Below, one piece after another: positions 11,220 through 36,938 of a DNA stretch of 64,000 bases. The position numbers and the translations under genes were made by a program. Position 1 is the stretch's first letter. Every line of letters begins with the position of its first letter. Origin of the DNA: Mustelus asterias (taxonomy: Eukaryota); the NCBI RefSeq assembly GCF_964213995.1, contig NC_135812.1, forward strand, positions 79,670,001 to 79,734,000, read 5' to 3'. A model generated the notes under the pieces. That model was given only the letters and a program-made list of their open reading frames with translations. It ran no database searches and was not told where the DNA came from.

Positions 11220-11333
11220 AAATGTGATGTGGTTTCTGTTCTGTGGGTTGGACTGACACCAGCGCAAGTTTAGATGGAAGTGTATCAGTGCATTCTGTAA
11301 TGTCTTGAGAGAAGTAAACTGCGGACATCAAGC
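11220..11333 (+). promoter_or_regulatory. Putative proximal promoter/5' UTR of the CD7-like gene
   Basis: Non-repetitive sequence just upstream of the ATG with RUNX consensus TGTGGTT (11228-11234) and ETS core GGAAGT (11276-11281); motif presence only. Confidence 0.4.
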
Positions 11334-11391
11334 ATGGCTGTACAAATATTCCACCTTCTTCAGATTCTTTTTGTTCTTGTGATTGCTGCAG
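11334..11391 (+). CDS. cd7: CD7-like gene exon 1, signal peptide MAVQIFHLLQILFVLVIAA
   Basis: Kozak-like AGCATGG, 19 hydrophobic codons plus 1 nt, then CAG|GTAGGA donor. Phase 1 joins the V exon to give ...VIAA-DSRIFQSP. Confidence 0.85.
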
Positions 11392-16496: not shown

Positions 16497-17705
16497 CTAA
16501 ATAGAAGTGTCCCAATACTTGTTCCTGTGTCCTGAAGGAAGACTGGTCCCTTCGTATCCTTGCTTGCTCAACTTCACTGCCATCACTGGTACTACCCCTT
16601 CTGTGGACTTGGACAACCTTGCACAGGCACACTTAACTACATTGACAAACACCATCAGTGCCAAGATCACCATGAAGAATATTGCAATCCCTTGTAGGAT
16701 TGATGTTCCCAAGGAGCCTAACTACCGAAGGTAAATGGTTCAAGGTCTTTGAGTTTCTCCACCTCTTTCCTGCTATGATTAACCAGATTAGTTATGTTTT
16801 CTGAACTATCTAGTATGTCCGTGCAACACCCTGATCTAATCACTGCACAAGTCCCACCCCTTGTCGCCAAGACTTAATCCAATGCCAATCTGTGATGAAG
16901 TACCACAGTGCGCATGGCTACTATCTCATCATTAACCTTAGCAAGGGCAGTTGCTGTATCATTGGTGACTTGTTCCAAAATGGAGTGTAGAACCAGAAAT
17001 TCACGCATCGCTTTAGCTACTCCATATTGGGGAAATAATATGCCAAAGAACCATTCTGTTTCTGTAACAGCCTGTCGATATCTTGGCAGAGGAGGGAGTT
17101 TAGGAGTGTGATATATGTATGGGATTACATATCCAAGGTAACATGACACCTTCCATCCGACAGGGAGCCAAGGATATGCCCTATCCCCACAAATCCAATA
17201 TGTTCCATTGAGAGTTGGGTAAGTGTTTCCTCCTCTAAAGCAATAAGAAATATTGCAAGATTGGTCATTACTGGGTGGACTCAGGCATAGCCACATGGTT
17301 CAATCTACCATGTGTTCACATTCACTCATGCCCAAGTTCTCCCCTTGGCCTTCCATATTTCTAGCACAATATATCCCTTTTGGTTTTGGTGTTGGCTGTT
17401 TTAAAACTAAACTAGGAGCTGGTTCCCCGAGGTTATAGATAGGTGTACATATGTTTATATGACCTAACTTCCCTGCACAAGACTCACTGTTAAGAAATTC
17501 TTTCCTTACCTCTCTACTGATTCCCCCTCCTGCATGTATGGGGATGTGTGAACAATGTGCTAGTCAATCTAGCATATGTGTGTGCCCATATATAAGTATT
17601 AACATGTACCTCCCGAGGGGAACGCTGAAGAACCTCAGTTGCTGGTCCCACCTGAGTCAAAATCTGTACATTCAATATTAAAAAGATATAATCACATGCA
17701 TTCAT
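16497..17705 (-). pseudogene. env: Retroviral env, gamma-type TM subunit, disrupted
   Basis: Signal-like MNACDYIFLILNVQIL, NGTYWICG..AYPWLP..W..SCYLG, decayed furin site RYRQ, fusion peptide WFFGILFPQYGV, ISD LHHRLALD*VLATRGGTC, CX6CC (CAVIRSGCC), TM GIAIFFMVILALMVFVNVV; contains stops and frameshifts. Confidence 0.92.
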
Positions 17706-18023
17706 TATAGCAGTCTCTGCAACTTCTGTCTTCCAATCAAACACAATTGTTGATCAATGTCAGGTAATCATACAGCTTGTTTACGAAACTTGCACAATCA
17801 CCGCGCCACACTTTGCACGCACTCGCCACTTGACTTGTTTCTGCGTTGGGGGATGTCCGGTCAATCTTTATTGGAGCTGTGCCTTGATTGTAGCTGTGGC
17901 AGGTCAGAGATCTTCTGTGTGCATAATCTGTAATAGAATCCAGATGGCCTCGTGACCTTAAATTTAGCAATCAGAATAAATTCGGTCCAATCAGATTCTC
18001 TCCACTTCTACTATTATATTAAA

Positions 18024-19530
18024 TCATTCAGTCGCTGGGTCAGGTTCGCTATCTTGGGGCTTACCACCAGGGTACAGCCTTAACTGAGTCCAGTGTCTCC
18101 AGGGCAGGCCGCACTTCTCATCAATTAGGGCACATGTCTGCCCTGTAACCACCACATCAAAAGACCCTTCCCGGCAAGTTGCTAGCCCCTTTTTGTCTGT
18201 CATGAGTTTCACCATTACCTTATCTCCTGCCAATTTAGTCCAATCTCCATGCTGCTGTTGCGTGATCACCTGCTTTTTGAGAAAATGTAGATTGTGTATT
18301 GGATCCCTCCATATTCAATTCACCCTCTCCGCCATCCCTCAACTCTGAGAGTGATATGGTATGTGAAACCTCTGCTTTATTCCCAACATACGACAGATCT
18401 CTTTCAAAACTCTGCCCGTGAATGAGTTCCCTGATCAGAATCCAGCTGAAGAGGCATTCCCCACCTGGGAATTATCTCATTTGGTAATATCACAGCTACT
18501 GTTGAAGCTGTGGCATCTTTACATGGGAATGCTTCAACCCATTGGTCTACAATTACTAAACAGGACGCTTTCCCTGTACCCGTGGTAACGGCCCTGTAAC
18601 ATCCATTTGTAAATTTTCCCAGGGTCCTTTGGGTCTGGGTTGACTTCCCATTTTAATCTTGCAGGGATGTCCTGCCACCACTAGGGTGCACTGCAGACAC
18701 CTCTGACAATACTAACATTTCTTCAATAAATCAAGCATTCTGTCCCTGCTCGTGTGTGCTGTTCCGTGATAAATCTTCAGCAGCGAATGCTGTTTACTTT
18801 AGGAACTATTATTTTCCCTTCTCTCCTCCATATTCCATCATGACCTCATCATCCTCCATCTTTTTTCCATTACTCCTTTTCCTCTTCATCTGCTTGTTCC
18901 TGCACTTGTTTTACATCAATATCTGGATTGTCCTCAACTGCTACAACTGCTAATCCTACAGGCTGTGTCCACTCCCAGTCCTGTTTTACTAAGGCCTTTG
19001 CTGCCTGGTCGGCAAAATGATTTCCTTGCTGTGCTTTATTCTCAATTTTCCTGTGAGCTTGAACTTTTATTACTGCTGCTTCTAAACGAACACTGGATGC
19101 CTGGAGTAAATTCCTGAGTATGCGGGCTATGGAGGATCATTTTTCCCATCAAAGTGAGGGGCTCCAACACACTGACCGCCCACGAGGCACAAGCTAGTGC
19201 CCTCACACACCGATGCATCCCTTTGGCAACTGAGTAACTGAGCGGAGTGATACTCTATCAGTCTCAATCATTCCCCATGCTGCTGAGCAACTACAGCTGC
19301 CTATATTCCATCATTTTCCTCACAAAAAATGTGTAACGGTTTGGTGACCAAAGCTGGGGCTGTCACCAAAGCCTGCTTCAAATCTGAAAAAGCCTGTATT
19401 TCTGCATCTCCCCACTCTATATTTCCCTGACGAGCCCTTCCTCCCTTTATCAAGTCCTGTAAGAGCTTTACCACTCGGGCACAATCTTCCACAAAATTCC
19501 TATAATAGTTAAGAAGTCTTCAATGCTTGT
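18024..19530 (-). pseudogene. pol: Retroviral pol remnant: RT thumb/connection, RNase H C-terminus, integrase
   Basis: LLNYYRNFV..IEWGDAEIQAFSDLKQALVTAPAL; VIKVQAH..GNHFADQAAK; HHCC (YHGTAH..CQRCLQC); PWENLQMDVTGPLP, WVEAFP, EIIPRWGMPLQLDSDQGTH; C-terminal GDKVMVK..WRHWTQL. No protease or YxDD seen. Confidence 0.9.
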
Positions 19531-28620: not shown

Positions 28621-28829
28621 GAAGTGGCAACTAGACTCTCAGCTACTGAAAGGAGCCATTTTACTCCAGGAATCTGAAATAATAGAAATTACACAGAACA
28701 ATCCCTTATTTCTATACCACTATTCTTCTTCAAATAAATATTGACTTAAAAGAACATTCCGTTTGATAATTGATCACATTCAGAGCTTTATGACCGTACT
28801 GACTATATCTTTAATTCTATATTTTACAG

Positions 28830-29168
28830 ACAGTCGCATTTTTCAGTCTCCTTTTGTTAAACAAGTGAAAGGGGGAGGATCTGTTTCAATAAACTGCGGA
28901 TTTACATCTGAAGACGATACCATTGTGGGCATCTATTTAAGAAGAAATCTTTTAGTTCCCACCGATCTGATCTACGTCCACGATCGTATTAATACGGTGC
29001 ATGACGCATATATCAACCGTACTGAGTTTAAAGGAAGCAAACAAAACTTCACTGTAACCCTCAATAATCTCCAGGAAAATGACACAGATATTTACTATTG
29101 CGTGTTTGGAATACGAAAAGTTACAGTATCAAATGTATTTGGACAAGGAACAATGTTGATAGTGTCAG
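28830..29168 (+). CDS. cd7: CD7-like gene exon 2, IgV domain with germline-joined J-like segment
   Basis: Acceptor ttctatattttacag|, donor tcag|gtatgt, 339 nt, phase 1-1. Encodes QSP..VSINC..VGIYLRR..RTEFKGSKQNFTVTLNNLQENDTDIYYC..NVFGQGTMLIVS. GIYLR replacing the C-strand Trp motif and NVxGxGT match mammalian CD7 as I recall it ([40 protein letters not shown]). Confidence 0.92.
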
Positions 29169-30310: not shown

Positions 30311-32575
30311 TAAATTATTCTTCTGGCCGTTTGAGTAGTCTGTTTCTTCTTTCATTATTTTTCTTTGATGGGCCGGTTTTTTTGTCAATTTCAACAAGTG
30401 GCAGAGGGCCCTGTGGGGGAGATGGGCGATTTTGTGTTGAGACAAACAATATAAAGAGGTCAACATGGAGGAGAAAGTTCACAATCTAAAGTTGTTGAAC
30501 TTAGTGTTGAGTCCAGATCAAAATCTTTTGCATGTACCCTACAGCCATATTTGATCAGTCTCACCTCATTTTTTCCTTATCATTTCTTGAGTTGTCTTCC
30601 ATCCTCTCCCATTCATTTCACTATCAGTTATTTTATTCTGAGGCCTGCAAATAAGAATATACAATAGCCAGAGAACACAGTTGTTCTTAAAGGTGAGTGA
30701 ACCTGGCAAGTATCTCCTGCAGCCATGTCTACTGTTGACACAAGCTACTTTAGCAAGTTTCTTGGTTAATCAAAGTTAAATTAAATGTCTAACAGAACTT
30801 CATACCAATTCTTAACACTTGCTATAACTTATGGCTTTGACATGGACGGTATGAAGGGCCATGGGAGTGGGTGCTGCACCAAGGGACATAACTTGGCATG
30901 GACGGTATGAGGGGCCATGGAGTAGTTGGTGGAGGATATAGCTTTGCATGGCGGTATGGGTGAAACCATTTGAACTTGCCTTTCAAAAGGTTCCCTCATC
31001 CAGAATCATGATGCCTCTGAGGGGTCATAAACCTCAAGTCCTTTAAAAGCTGGCCCAAAACGACAAGAAATGTGGAGGTCTGGGTCATACCTATCCCCAT
31101 AATGAAACTGGCCAGGTCAGCAGTGCAGGGTGTGGGAATCGCAACCCACACGCAAATCGGGGCCGTGGGAATAGGGTTGGGAATCCTGTAATTGGGTCCC
31201 AGCCGCCATTTTGATACCTCCAGCATATCCCTGACTCTATGGAAATCCAGACTACAGCACTGATTTTAAAGAACAAACTTCCTCCTGGCTTTAATGGTAC
31301 GTTTCTCCCTGCCTCACCAGAGTGAATTTTCCAGTATCCTTTAAAACAAAACCCCCTTTGTTCAACCCTTTGAGCATTATCAACTGGATTTCTCACTGCA
31401 AGGCACCCTCTAATGAACAATCCTTGTTTCCTTGACCATGAGTTCCATTTTCACTCGCACTCTATCTGGTGATTTACCCAAAAGCAATCCTTTTCTTTTG
31501 CCAGGCAGGGCAACCACTGTTGTGGTCTTCTTCCCCAATGTTTTCCATCTTACTGCCCCAAGGGTCAGTGAGCCTGTATGGCAATCAGACCAGTTGCCTC
31601 CTCCTTATCATCCAGGTGTTCAAACTTGCAACTTATTTTCCATAGGTTTTGCCCTTTGCCCCTGTCCCCATGGCAACCAAGACACACGGGCTTTTCTCTG
31701 GGTTAACTCAATATGACATTGCATAGGCTTGTCCTTGGCCAGACTCTGTACATGTTCACATGGATTTATTTCCAGGCAGACTCAGATAAAAGTCTTGTAC
31801 AGCTCCCAAGCTGCTCCATTTTACCTTGAATGAAAGGAGATAGTTTAGAGTAAACTTTTTTTATAAAGACTCCAAGGAAGTTAGGTATATGGTGGTTAGG
31901 TGGGCAAATAGAGTTGAGGTCAAGGCTCAGCCATGATCTTAGTAAAGAGCAGGAGAGACTTGAGGGGCTGAATGGCCTACTTCCTTGTTTATGTTTTTTT
32001 GGGGGCACATCCAATATGGCAAACAGCGCAGGAGCAGGAAGATGAACAGGAAGCTCATGGGCAGCTCTGGGCAAGAAGGTCCGGTTTCTGCATGAAGCAC
32101 CCCAGCAAAGGCAGCAGTCAGTCAGGCTGGCTGACGGGCAACAGCAAGGCCACTGGCAGAAGATGGGAAGGGTAAGTGCTGTCACCCTGAGAGAGGACAG
32201 TGGGTTTATTCTCAGCACCACTATTCCCGCAGGGCATCATCTTCGATGATGGCCAGCATCGTCACCTCCATGGGAGTGAGGGCATGCCTGTCCCTCTCCA
32301 ATTAGTGCCATTGCTGGCACTTGTGTGACTCCACTTCAGCTATTGACAGCCTATCTTGTTTGAAGGCAGAAGTCATGAGCTTGTAAGTGTACTCAGAGAT
32401 TTAAACACAGAACATGATTGGCGTATTCTAATCAGCGACACAACATATTCTGTCTTTTGTACTTCATCTTTATTTTCGGTTAAGAAAGATGATAGAAGAT
32501 GAAAATAATTTCATGACAATGCAGAGATATAAAATGTGCAATTCTTTTGTCAAAAACAATTACATATTTTTTCAG

Positions 32576-32718
32576 GGCTTAAAATGGAACACCATGCAAA
32601 CTGTTCTGTGGGAGCAGCAAACTACAGCGAAGTTTCATATAAGAATTCAATCCTGATCTGTGTGATTACTGTTGCAATATTTGCCAGTATTTGTGCATTA
32701 GTTCTGTTATTCTTGCAT
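32576..32718 (+). CDS. cd7: CD7-like gene exon 3, short stalk with one Cys plus transmembrane helix
   Basis: Acceptor atattttttcag|, donor cat|gtaagt, phase 1 to 0, in frame with the V exon: GLKMEHHANCSVGAANYSEVSYKNSILICVITVAIFASICALVLLFLH. Confidence 0.88.
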
Positions 32719-34423
32719 GTAAGTTCCTGCTTTCTTTATAACAAATATTTATAGGTATTAAATAATAGGAAGTGAAATTGATGCAATTAAATACAGATTG
32801 TGCTGGTGAACAGTTATCCAGATTGTTAAATTGGGAAAAAGCACATGTTATATGTAACTTATTGTCCACTTAAAAATGGATGTCTGGATGTCCGCTTTCA
32901 TCTAGTTTGGATAGGGCAAAATTCAATGTCCTCACCAAGGCACTGAATTAGGCAGGGGGGTGGTGGGCGAGGACCTCACTATCTTCCTAACTGCACCCTG
33001 GTTATGTCTGGGGTGGGAGTGAATGCTCACCTAAAGCCTCATCCTGCCTCTGCTGATATTAACTCAGTGACTGGCGGGGCATTCACCATTGTGGAAATCC
33101 TCATTCAAGGGCACTCATTTCCTGATTAAGAGACCTGGCATTGGGAAGAGTGGTGGGTGGGGTGGCACTGAAAGCCACTCTCCCCACTCCCACTGCCTGC
33201 CCTTGCTTCTTACCCACTCCCCACTGTATTCACCAGTCAATGATTCCCTCACTGTGACCCCCCATCCTGCTGTCACTCAGCTGTGCAGTTGATCCCTGAC
33301 TGAACCTGAGCCTCTGGTGGAAGTGTAACCACAAGCCAGCATTGGTGTCCCTGTGGCACTGATGATACTGAGCATCCGCCAGTGTCTGATTGGCTGGCAG
33401 CTCACAGCGGGAGGGATTTCCACTCATGGGACCTTGATTCTGGGGAAGGCCTGGCACTTGCCTGATGGGTCCTTCAAATCACGGGTCTCCCCCAAAGAAG
33501 GCAATGTGGGGTATTTGCCAGCGCTCCATCCAGTGAGTGAGACCCCCATCGCCTGGATTAAATTCAACGCAAAGAACCTGAGTCATAAACATTAAAGAGA
33601 TTCTGGGATCCCCATATCAATGATTCTCTGTAACTTCCCTCTCATTTCAGAAGAATTTTTATTGTTAAAAAAATCTAATCAACTGAATTACACTATTGAT
33701 ATTGATTTTTCTGAAATATATAATTAATAAAACCAATACTTGACTTTGTTAGTCTTAGAAAAGCACCCCTTTAACACTCAAAGCAAAATTTGTCAAATAA
33801 ATACAGTAGGACCCTGGAAATCTGTGAGTTACAACCCCAGAATTCTCCCGGAACATATGTATTGTTGAACCTCATGATCACAGATGCCATTCTCCAGCCG
33901 ATTTGATTCACTCCGTGAGATCTCAAGAAATAGCTGAAGGAACTGAATAGAGCTAAGGCTATGGGCCCTGCCCCATATGTAGCTTTGAAGACTTGTACCC
34001 CAGTACTAGTAACATCCTTAACTAAGATGTTTCAGTACAATTGCAACACTCATATCTACCCAATTAAAATGGGAAATGTCTATGTCCACTAAAAGCAGGA
34101 CAAATCATTCCAACCAATTATCACCCTATCAGTCTTCCCTCAATGATCAGAGAAAATTCAGAAAGGCAGTGGAAGGTGTTCATTCAGAGCCATTTATTAA
34201 AGAATAGAAATAATAGAAATATAGATAGCTAATGCGAAATGAACAACATTTTCAGGATCATTCAGCCTTCCTAGGGTCCAAGGTTCTCCATTTCTGGCAA
34301 GATCAGCAATTGTTGCCCATCCTAACTGCACTTGAACTGAATGGCTGAGTTGGGTATTTCAGAGAGCAGTTATTAGTCAACTACATTGCAGAGAATCCGG
34401 AATCACATGTAGACCAAACCAGC

Positions 34424-34950
34424 TGTAGGGTCCATTCATTCCTTTGAATAGACGAGGGCAGCACTGGTACGGTGTTGAAATGAATTTCTTTTATTGAACA
34501 GAACTTAAAATGAAATCAGTATAAAAGCGAAAAGAAAGAGAAAAGCTGGAGCCAGCCCTGTACTGATCACATACTGAACTCAAAAACAAAGCTGAACGGC
34601 AAACACAGAGCTGAAACTACAATATATGTCACTCGTCATCTTGTTATTGAAATTGTTTTGCACATGCTGTCCCCAACTTGGAGAAACAGGCCTTGCAGAT
34701 GTTGTTTATGAAAAACTTGTTTGGCTTATGAAAAGTTTGTTCTGCTTGCTTTGCACTCTTTAAAAATGCAGCCAATTCCGAGCTAACCCAGCATGCCTTA
34801 TGAGTTTTAAAATGTAGTCAAGTGTTAGCTTTAGTATGTAGTCAAGTTAATCCCAACAGTCTAGCAGTTAAACATAATTGTAAAGGCAGAAATATCTTAA
34901 AATGAAGTATTTTCATAGATGAAACAAACCATACACAGGGTCCCTCAACA
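34424..34950 (-). mobile_element. Solo LTR nested in a family C SINE
   Basis: TGTAGGG...CCCTCAACA ends, flanks CCAGC/TCAGC, minus-strand AATAAA near 34490, homologous to 49176-49715. Confidence 0.75.
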
Positions 34951-35159
34951 TCAGCTAATAATGGCAGGTTGCCTCCATGAACGCCAGGTTTCATGAATTG
35001 AATTAAATTCCACCAACTACCATGATGGGATTTGAACCAATCGTCCCCCAGAGGATTAACCTGCATCTCTGGATTACTAGTCCAGTGACATTACCACTGC
35101 CTTATATTGAAGCAACCATTGTGATGAATGTGATTTTTAAAAACTGTCTTCATTTTTAG

Positions 35160-35380
35160 GTAAGAAAACATTCGTTGGGAGAGCAGCTAACTCATTGTAT
35201 GACGATCTGAACCTGGTGCGAACACAAAGAAGGGGATGCTCGTTGCATTATTTTGCATTAACTTCAAGCTCAGGCCACCTTATGCTTTTTCTATTAAAGA
35301 TCAAATGTAGGCAGAGAATTGTAAAATTCTTAATTTCTTTCAAATTTAGCACATTTTCGCCAAACGTTTTTGCGATGTAG
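35160..35380 (+). CDS. cd7: CD7-like gene candidate exon 4, cytoplasmic tail (frame ambiguous)
   Basis: Acceptor ctgtcttcatttttag|. One frame reads KTFVGRAANSLYDDLNLVRTQRRG, resembling the CD7 AA..VYEDM region. That frame needs the AAG acceptor at 35164 or a restored 1-nt deletion; the first AG in phase 0 gives VRKHSLGEQLTHCMTI-stop. Confidence 0.55.
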
Positions 35381-36938
35381 GGGTTTGTTTAAAAAAACAT
35401 TATAGATTGCATTTTACCACCTCTCTTGTACTACTGGGAGGAGGGTGAGCTGGTAATTTGGTGGTGGACGGCATTGGATGGAGAGCTTGACGTCCTCCCA
35501 CTGCCACAGTATATCACCAGTGGCAGAAATCTCAGGGGTGCAACTGCCCGCTGGTTGGCTAATTATGCTTATTACATGCCCAACAAAGGGCCTCTTCCCA
35601 CCCCGCCACCATTTTGCCAGCTTTGGGAGGTGTCACTGCTGCATGGGGACACAACTAGTTAAAGTCCACTTTTTGAGGCCTGGGCCCTCCATTATGTCCT
35701 CTCCAAGGCCAAGGAAGGGGCTCAGCTCCTCTCAGCAATAGTTGTCAACCTTGTGACTAAGGGGTCACCGTTAGAAGGTAGAGCTTCTTCTCCCCAATCG
35801 AGACAGCCTGCCTGTCTGAACCAAGTACAGTTAGAAAGAAAAATTTACCTTCTCTTTGAGGGCACCTCAACATGGAAGAATCTTTTCCTTCTTCCTGCAC
35901 CATTCCAGCTATGGTAATGTTGAGACTGCAGTTCTGCCAGCTCTCTGACTGGACTGGCAGTGCTGGGAGGCAAGACGCCACCCTCAACTGGATGGCAATC
36001 CCAATGGCAGCCTCGTAATTGGCTGCTGCTAGGGTAAAACGCCACGGACAGTCCTGGTGCCAGCCTATGTGACTCCTGGCAATCAGACCTTCTGAGAAAG
36101 TCCAGCCCCATTTGTTTTATATTTGCAGAATATGTGCAGAGCTTGCTTTGTAGAAGGTGGTGTTTGTGTGTGTAATTCATGGATATTAAGGTGGAGAAAC
36201 ACCCCAATTGTACGTGGGGCAGATGTCATTTGTACATTCGTTTATTCCCTTCCTCTCTCCTCTTCCGCATTCTCAGTGCCTTCAAGTGTTGATGTACTGT
36301 TCCACAGACAAGTGAGAAATCCCGCAAGCCCTTGCTGCCTTACCAATGTCACACTTGTAGCGCGAGTGCGATACCTCATCTGAAATTGGGTCATGCCACG
36401 ATTCAGGCATCCCAGTTTGCCACCTAAAACAAGCATTAGATCCCTTACATATGTTAACGAAGGACCTCATGCCTGTTTTAGATCCCCTCAGAGGAACTAG
36501 AAAGGGAAGAGAAGGGCAGGCATTGGCGTGGCAGACAATTCCTATGTTGCCAAGCAGAAACTAGCAACAAAGGTAAATTAATCATCCAGTTTTGTCATCT
36601 TCCAAATGACATTTCTCATGTTCCTCTTTATAAATGGCTAATTAACAATATGTTGTCATGCTGCAGCAGTAATAAATAAACAGCTGAACCGGACACAAAT
36701 TCCATTTAAATCGTCTCCATTTATTTTTGCTGTCATGCTGTGCTTAGTGAATTTTTTGATTCGATGAATACATGATGCTCAATGCGAATTACTTCTATTC
36801 CTTAATTAGTCTCACTCCTGTTTTATCTTCAAATGTTATATCAATTCAAATTTTAACTTTATGCATGGTTGAAGTTGGCAGAAAATGTCATGATCTAAAA
36901 AACTATTCCAAGTGACTGGATTGGTTAGTCTTCTGCAT

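What the first reader, a model, noticed from the sequence alone, without database searches (positions are those of the whole stretch)
35160..35240. ITIM-like SLYDDL where mammalian CD7 has the PI3K motif YEDM, behind a 1-nt frame discrepancy
Seen: KTFVGRAANSLYDDLNLVR fits S-x-Y-x-x-L. It is reached in phase only via the AAG 5 nt downstream of the first AG, or by adding one A (GTA AAG AAA, giving VKK like mammalian IKK). The first AG gives a 16-aa tail with no tyrosine. Established: YxxM binds PI3K p85, and (S/I/V/L)xYxx(L/V/I) recruits SHP/SHIP phosphatases. Inference: an inhibitory-type CD7, with either tandem-acceptor choice toggling the motif, a signalling-dead allele, or a homopolymer assembly error.
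Basis: partly seen in the sequence, partly recalled or inferred. Interest (0 to 1): 0.7.

Follow-up and report, generated by a model that had tools for sequence, protein, structure and literature searches.

The report
Tail-less twin of shark CD7
This shark has two neighbouring copies of the immune-cell gene CD7, and the flagged 'inhibitory motif' is an out-of-frame leftover in the second copy, which is predicted to lack a signalling tail but has an almost identical binding domain, so it likely acts as a non-signalling decoy for the first.

Summary
The sequence is as described, but the inhibitory reading is not supported. The window gene (copy B) is one of two tandem CD7-like genes; copy A, 62 kb upstream, keeps an intact YEDM tail. 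B's last exon is 19 nt shorter than A's before the motif. The homologous first AG therefore gives a 16-aa tyrosine-free tail, and SLYDDL is the out-of-frame remnant of SVYEDM: 5 of 13 invariant residues are changed and the old stop is lost. Contigs of three runs (two samples, one study) match the exon exactly, so an assembly error is unlikely. Of 79 CD7-like relatives with a transmembrane segment, 66 keep YxxM and none carries an ITIM alone. The catshark orthologue of B also has a short tyrosine-free tail beginning VRK. The better finding: B's V exon is 97% identical to A's, against 67-68% for leader and transmembrane exons, and the regions give conflicting trees, the signature of gene conversion. 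B is likely an old, maintained, non-signalling twin of CD7 (decoy or damper). Splicing, expression and function were not tested.

The parts
11334..11391 (+). Exon 1 of CD7-like copy B: signal peptide, phase-1 GT donor
   Evidence: tblastn of catshark CD7-like N-terminus, E 9e-7; donor checked; RUNX-like TGTGGTT at 11228 and promoter similarity to copy A
28830..29168 (+). Exon 2: V-type Ig domain, open frame, 328/339 nt identical to copy A
   Evidence: profile of relatives matches human CD7 chain 12hp_C at E 5.7e-12
28762..29168 (+). Inferred gene-conversion tract shared with copy A (68 nt of intron plus V exon, 394/407 nt identical)
   Evidence: Fisher p 6e-19 against TM exon and AU tests
32576..32718 (+). 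Exon 3: stalk with one Cys and uncharged transmembrane segment, phase-0 donor
   Evidence: 97/143 nt identical to copy A; one-Cys stalk shared with catshark P0004
35158..35159 (+). First acceptor AG (TAG after a pyrimidine run), homologous to copy A's acceptor; followed by GTAAGA
   Evidence: alignment to copy A; contexts
35160..35210 (+). Exon 4 coding part read from the first AG: 16-aa tyrosine-free tail starting VRK, and its stop; predicted protein 196 aa
   Evidence: exact match in contigs of three runs
35163..35164 (+). Second AG (AAG context), 5 nt downstream; would restore the old frame if used
   Evidence: sequence; use not tested
35192..35209 (+). SLYDDL: out-of-frame remnant of the conserved SVYEDM motif
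   Evidence: codon-by-codon comparison with copy A
35240..35242 (+). Position of the ancestral stop codon, TAG in copy A, TCG here
35243..35380 (+). Former 3' UTR into which the old frame now reads on (46 more codons to TAG); ATTAAA at 35293 lies before that stop
   Evidence: aligns with copy A's 3' UTR

Best explanation
The window gene is the second of two tandem CD7-like genes of a shark, its last exon is 19 nt shorter than its neighbour's, and it is predicted to make a 196-aa membrane protein with a 16-aa tyrosine-free tail that likely binds the same ligand as the intact copy without signalling. Shown: the duplication, the net 19-nt loss, the exact read match, YEDM in copy A, the near-identical V exon against divergent leader and TM exons. 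Inferred: the first AG is the acceptor used; the duplicate predates the split from Scyliorhinus; the V exon was overwritten by gene conversion; with no YxxM, B cannot recruit PI3K p85, and with no charged TM residue it is unlikely to pair with an ITAM adaptor. B would damp copy A by competing for ligand, or by forming mixed dimers through its remaining stalk cysteine, or would serve as bait for a pathogen that binds the V domain. SLYDDL is a decaying remnant, not an ITIM. My odds: gene anatomy 0.9, tyrosine-free tail as the main product 0.85, maintained decoy or damper role about 0.6.
For: Copy A at G000:C12:79632772-79643018 encodes 216 aa with YEDM. Net -19 nt, 8 of 21 old-frame codons changed, stop lost; 5 of 13 positions invariant in 11 YEDM tails are changed. 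First AG aligns with A's acceptor; competition order CAG > TAG > AAG is stated in PMC2018619 (passages). Exact match in X1, X2 (35073-35450) and X3 (35099-35299), 0 other letters and 0 gaps. S. canicula has two CD7-like proteins on contigs of the same length, 215 aa with YEDM and 195 aa with a 15-aa tyrosine-free tail starting VRK. Leader plus stalk/TM groups B with that 195-aa protein (bootstrap 96; A+B rejected, AU p 0.0056), while the V domain groups B with A (bootstrap 100; B+P0004 rejected, AU p 2.5e-5). B's three upstream exons are open with GT-AG sites, and its promoter region still aligns with A's.
Against: No transcript was seen, so acceptor use and expression are untested. The old-frame block has pN/pS 0.52 between A and B (8 and 5 changes); the tyrosine codon and 8 of 13 invariant residues survive, and V-L, E-D, M-L are conservative, which fits some time under selection in the old frame. 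The catshark tail contains DLNL, so M-to-L may be older than the loss of frame. The TM exon shows little constraint between A and B (pN/pS 0.88). Gene conversion between tandem neighbours also happens without function. In the catshark the two V domains are only 74% identical, so tight matching is not universal. The orthologue is one predicted protein model whose DNA I could not see. The three runs come from one study and contigs drop rare variants.
Confidence: 0.6

Rival explanations
1. Copy B is a functionless or nearly functionless duplicate in slow decay; its V exon looks intact only because it was recently overwritten from copy A.
For: Frame and stop of the tail lost; TM exon pN/pS 0.88; intron 1 is 17.4 kb and holds broken retroelement pieces; PMC5701461 (abstract) describes conversion under relaxed constraint involving a non-functional SIGLEC16P allele.
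Against: Leader and TM exons, outside the converted tract, are open and free of frameshifts at 67-68% identity to A, with leader pN/pS 0.46. The catshark orthologue is also an intact membrane-protein model with the same one-Cys stalk.
Confidence: 0.25
2. One reading: the AAG 5 nt downstream is used in part of the transcripts and yields a 251-aa isoform whose SLYDDL recruits SHP/SHIP phosphatases, so B is an inhibitory partner of A.
For: The frame is open and the motif fits the consensus; tyrosine kept; conservative changes; V-exon homogenisation is typical of opposing receptor pairs (PMC3210942, abstract); close AGs compete (PMC2018619).
Against: 0 of 79 TM-bearing relatives carry an ITIM-like motif alone; the catshark orthologue has no tail tyrosine; the old stop is lost and the frame runs 46 codons into former 3' UTR and past ATTAAA 35293; AAG is the weaker context.
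Confidence: 0.08
3. The frame shift is an assembly error or a private allele, and the species normally reads SLYDDL in frame.
For: A gain of one base near the short A run would put the motif in frame; the runs laid are from one study, X1 and X2 may be the assembly's own sample, and contigs hide rare variants.
Against: No substitution or indel row falls in 35100-35450 in any of the 3 runs, and the covering contigs match exactly, including one from a second sample. The lost stop is independent damage in the same frame.
Confidence: 0.04
4. The acceptor is an AG|GTAAGA site, so splicing to it re-creates a donor (CAT|GTAAGA) and the transcript re-splices to another last exon downstream.
For: The junction scores 7 of 9 against a donor consensus.
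Against: Of 75 candidate acceptors in 35400-63900, 1 has a tyrosine motif within 60 codons, with no likeness to CD7 tails; the copy A tail has one match in the genome, itself; the catshark model reads through the same VRK start.
Confidence: 0.03

Closest known systems
CD7 (single V-type Ig domain, YEDM tail binding PI3K)
   Same: V domain whose best non-antibody match among solved structures is human CD7; relatives named CD7-like by NCBI; leader/V/stalk-TM/tail layout; copy A keeps YEDM.
   Different: Two tandem copies; copy B has no in-frame tyrosine motif and one stalk Cys instead of three. The mammalian ligand SECTM1 is reported as eutherian-specific and CD7 as not duplicated near Sectm1 in mouse and rat (PMC4603632, passages), so the shark ligand is unknown.
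Paired leukocyte receptors with homogenised ligand-binding exons (KLRC/NKG2, PIR, Ly49 in PMC3210942; Siglec-11/16 in PMC5701461)
   Same: Tandem paralogues, conversion confined to the ligand-binding exon, divergent signalling end.
   Different: Known pairs oppose an ITIM receptor to an adaptor-coupled activating one. Here a PI3K-motif receptor is paired with a copy predicted to have neither an in-frame ITIM nor a charged TM residue, so it is signalling versus silent.
CD28X of sharks and tetrapods (PMC11599192)
   Same: Single V domain, TM, YEDM tail.
   Different: CD28X is defined by a PPP-containing CDR3 motif, EYEDM and pudp/sts/anos1 synteny; both copies here lack PPP and copy A has VYEDM.
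ITIM receptors such as PD-1, CD28HL3, LAG-3
   Same: SLYDDL fits the (S/I/V/L)xYxx(L/V/I) consensus on paper.
   Different: It is out of frame from the homologous acceptor, single, and not conserved in any relative examined.

Membership tests
CD7 | Single V-type Ig domain closest to CD7 | tested here: met
   Profile of 10 relatives: human CD7 chain is second of 1236 matches (48.5 bits in one domain), behind one multi-domain antibody construct; window V exon is 62-73% identical to catshark CD7-like proteins
CD7 | Cytoplasmic YEDM PI3K motif, copy A | tested here: met
   link of YEDM to PI3K seen only as the title of Lee et al. 1996 in reference lists
CD7 | Cytoplasmic YEDM PI3K motif, copy B (window) | tested here: not met
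   No tyrosine from the first AG; YDDL in the old frame. B is a CD7 paralogue by descent, not a signalling CD7
CD7 | Conserved gene neighbourhood | tested here: inconclusive
   Cybc1 family 1.25 Mb 5' of copy A and one RPN7-family locus 6 Mb 3' on the same contig; that CYBC1 and GPS1 lie near human CD7 is recalled; no immediate neighbour found among 148 of 456 candidate ORFs scanned
CD7 | Binds SECTM1 or galectin-1; expressed on T and NK cells | not testable with these tools
   Ligands from PMC10320036 passages
ITIM inhibitory receptor | ITIM consensus in the translated tail | tested here: not met
   Out of frame from the homologous acceptor; met only if the +5 AG is used, which was not testable
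ITIM inhibitory receptor | Motif conserved among orthologues | tested here: not met
   0 of 14 cartilaginous-fish proteins; 0 of 79 TM-bearing relatives with ITIM alone
ITIM inhibitory receptor | Phosphorylation-dependent SHP/SHIP binding | not testable with these tools
   Needs a pull-down
Paired receptors with homogenised binding domains | Tandem paralogues with conversion limited to the ligand-binding exon | tested here: met
   394/407 nt versus 38/57 and 97/143; opposite AU results for the two regions
Paired receptors with homogenised binding domains | Opposite signalling ends (ITIM versus adaptor-coupled activation) | tested here: not met
   A has YxxM; B has no in-frame tyrosine and no charged TM residue
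Paired receptors with homogenised binding domains | Shared ligand and co-expression | not testable with these tools
   Inferred only from 92% V-domain identity
CD28X | PPP-containing CDR3 motif and EYEDM | tested here: not met
   Definition from PMC11599192; sequences

The most novel reading that the evidence does not exclude
In the ancestor of this shark and the catsharks, CD7 duplicated and the copy turned YEDM into an in-frame SxYxxL, making an activating/inhibitory CD7 pair kept matched by V-exon conversion. This species can still reach that ITIM through the +5 acceptor, so a 5-nt splice shift would switch the twin between silent decoy and inhibitor, and other sharks may keep the ITIM in frame.
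Probability: 0.1. Interest if true: 0.65.

Novelty: new variant of a known kind. Interest (0 to 1): 0.32.

Why it matters
It removes a false 'inhibitory CD7' and shows that the PI3K-motif CD7 is conserved from sharks and rays to mammals. If copy B is expressed, sharks have a built-in non-signalling CD7 twin whose binding domain is kept matched to the working copy. That pattern usually marks a ligand that evolves fast or is exploited by pathogens, and it gives a handle on the unknown pre-mammalian CD7 ligand, since SECTM1 is reported only in eutherians. The interest is mainly for comparative immunology.

Tried and rejected
No RNA holder was listed for the gene, so splicing could not be examined; this is no evidence either way. 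A hidden phase 0-to-1 micro-exon in intron 3 was sought: 3 weak candidates, none convincing, and copy A needs none. Homopolymer error rejected; reads were laid on 32500-35450 only, so the leader and V exons were not checked against reads. A DNA search with the last exon found only the window and copy A; the V-domain search found the same two loci among 148 candidates scored. Pfam scan of 148 of 456 non-repeat ORFs of at least 60 aa found only retroelement domains. CD28X considered and rejected by motif. An apparent frame match between the window's third frame (IRWES) and the catshark tail (IHRES) was considered as proof of a shared frameshift and set aside, because the catshark residues also align in frame with HRE/HRD of other sharks; catshark DNA is needed. 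Excess amino-acid change in the V exon (pN/pS 1.8; 9.5 versus 1.5 changes) is too small a sample to call selection. No second copy was seen for S. torazame, orectolobiform sharks or Heterodontus, but these word-based searches of annotated proteins cannot show absence. Literature searches returned no paper on shark CD7 or its duplication; PMC13007054 and PMC11372145 had no CD7 passages; subscription papers are not searched. Earlier scan findings: none. No structure or complex prediction was run, as it would not bear on the frame question.

Full report
Observation. The window holds a four-exon gene on the + strand: leader 11334-11391, V-type Ig exon 28830-29168, stalk/TM exon 32576-32718 and a last exon at 35160. 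The TM exon ends in phase 0. The first AG gives a 16-aa tail without tyrosine; the AAG 5 nt further on gives a 71-aa tail with SLYDDL. The ITIM pattern arises about 0.10 times per 71 residues of window translation (174 in 127,996), but the real reason for the match is descent from SVYEDM, one base away.

Identity. The V domain finds catshark proteins at 65-69% identity, one named CD7-like. A profile of 10 relatives ranks human CD7 second of 1236 solved-structure matches and first among non-antibody chains. A Cybc1-family gene lies 1.25 Mb away and an RPN7-family locus 6 Mb away on the same contig; their place near human CD7 is recalled, not looked up. CD28X, another shark receptor with YEDM, is defined by a PPP motif and EYEDM (PMC11599192, passages and a supplement search), which these genes lack.

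A second copy explains the frame. The genome has two V-exon matches among 148 candidates scored: the window (copy B) and one 62 kb upstream (copy A). Copy A has the same four exons and encodes 216 aa ending in an intact YEDM tail. Its acceptor aligns with B's first AG. From acceptor to the conserved Arg codon A has 39 nt and B 20 nt, a net loss of 19 nt. One deletion between two GA dinucleotides in an A-like exon would give a 16-aa tail ending at the same TGA (worked by hand; the exact breakpoints are not fixed by the alignment). In the old frame 13 of 63 nt and 8 of 21 codons differ, the stop included. Its 79% identity lies within the 73-87% of six unconverted intron blocks. Among 11 YEDM tails (copy A and 10 relatives; P0009 and P0011 left out as duplicates) 13 of 19 positions are invariant, and B changes 5 of them. 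The M-to-L base that creates the ITIM look is silent in the frame read from the first AG. Past the lost stop the old frame runs into sequence that aligns with A's 3' UTR.

Not an assembly error. Contigs of runs X1 and X2 cover 35073-35450 and one of X3, a second sample, covers 35099-35299, all with 0 other letters and 0 gaps; no variant row falls in the exon. Limits: one study, X1 and X2 are one sample and may be the assembly's source, contigs drop rare variants, and only 32500-35450 was laid.

Relatives. Of 14 cartilaginous-fish proteins tabulated, 12 have YEDM and 2 end without it; none has YxxL (P0012, a shorter isoform with YEDM, and P0024, an isoform without the TM exon, were left out). 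Of the 150 best profile hits, 53 were outside 170-345 aa and 18 had no TM by my threshold; of the 79 kept, 66 have YxxM, 49 YEDM, 1 an ITIM-like match beside a YxxM, none an ITIM alone, and 13 neither. Shark and ray tails start xRK, xKK or xRN, so VRK needs no extra A. Scyliorhinus canicula has two models on contigs of equal length: 215 aa with YEDM, and 195 aa (XP_038633590.1) with a 15-aa tyrosine-free tail that starts VRK. The latter shares B's leader signature and one-cysteine stalk, where A-type proteins have three (7 of the 8 other relatives listed; the Narcine protein has one). A stingray model (P0018) also stops just before the motif; whether that is a true gene or a model error was not checked.

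Mosaic history. A and B are identical at 328 of 339 nt in the V exon and 66 of 68 nt just upstream, but at 38 of 57 in the leader and 97 of 143 in the TM exon (Fisher p 6e-19). With 13 sequences, leader plus stalk/TM groups B with the catshark 195-aa protein (bootstrap 96; A+B rejected, AU p 0.0056), whereas the V domain groups B with A (bootstrap 100; the alternative rejected, AU p 2.5e-5). So the duplication is older than the split from Scyliorhinus, and the V exon was homogenised recently; the direction of conversion is not determined. This is the pattern described for paired leukocyte receptors (PMC3210942, abstract and outline; PMC5701461, abstract).

Mechanism. Established: CD7 associates with PI3K through YEDM (seen as a cited title only); TAG outcompetes AAG at close acceptors (PMC2018619, passages); ITIM consensus and SH2 docking (PMC10768021, passages). 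Inferred: B splices to the first AG, escapes nonsense-mediated decay because the stop is in the last exon (general knowledge), and reaches the surface as a 196-aa protein with a V domain 92% identical to A's, an uncharged TM segment and no SH2 docking site. It would compete for ligand, dilute A in mixed dimers (CD7 dimerisation through stalk cysteines is recalled), or act as bait. I give this 0.6, slow decay 0.25, a working ITIM isoform through the +5 AG 0.08, error or private allele 0.04, re-splicing to another exon 0.03.

Against my reading. No transcript was seen. The old-frame block shows pN/pS 0.52 between A and B; this is about what neutral change on B's branch alone would give if synonymous changes split evenly, but it also allows a period of selection. 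The tyrosine survives, the three changes in the motif are conservative, and the catshark tail has DLNL, so M-to-L may predate the loss of frame. An ancestral inhibitory stage is therefore not excluded. The TM exon shows little constraint (0.88), and the catshark pair is only 74% identical in the V domain.

Novelty. Searches of the held library showed no paper on shark CD7 or its duplication; subscription papers and most supplements were not seen and may bear on this. PMC4603632 (passages) reports SECTM1 as eutherian-specific and CD7 as not duplicated near Sectm1 in mouse and rat. Verdict: the flagged motif is a remnant; what is there is a tyrosine-free, V-exon-matched CD7 twin, a new variant of a known kind. 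Interest 0.32.

Noticed in passing
G000:C12:79632772-79643018 (L003, L004): Copy A: intact four-exon CD7-like gene, 216 aa, YEDM tail, three stalk cysteines; 62 kb upstream of the window gene on the same strand.
   Followed up: yes
window 28762-29168: Gene-conversion tract shared with copy A; 9 of the 10 differing V-domain codons change the amino acid, too few to test selection.
   Followed up: yes
window 35158-35165: The acceptor reads AG|GTAAGA, so the spliced junction re-creates a donor like the one just used (recursive-splice-like); no plausible downstream exon was found.
   Followed up: partly
window 16500-18700 (- strand): Broken retrovirus-like pieces in intron 1 of copy B: an envelope-like open frame at 16877-17299 (likeness judged by eye, no Pfam hit) and a weak integrase-core match at 18407-18652 (E 0.0026, below cut-off). 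Intron 1 is 17.4 kb against 4.3 kb in copy A.
   Followed up: partly
P0018 (Hemitrygon akajei), P0024 (Narcine bancroftii isoform X2): A stingray CD7-like model ends just before the YEDM block, and an electric-ray isoform lacks the TM exon; tail-less or soluble CD7 forms may recur in cartilaginous fish.
   Followed up: no
P0017, P0019, P0030: CD7-like proteins of about 320 aa with two Ig matches and a YEDM tail; P0017 (a caecilian model) has two identical V domains in tandem.
   Followed up: no
window 34280-35100: High-copy repeat pieces end about 60 nt upstream of the last-exon acceptor (very high contig depth).
   Followed up: no
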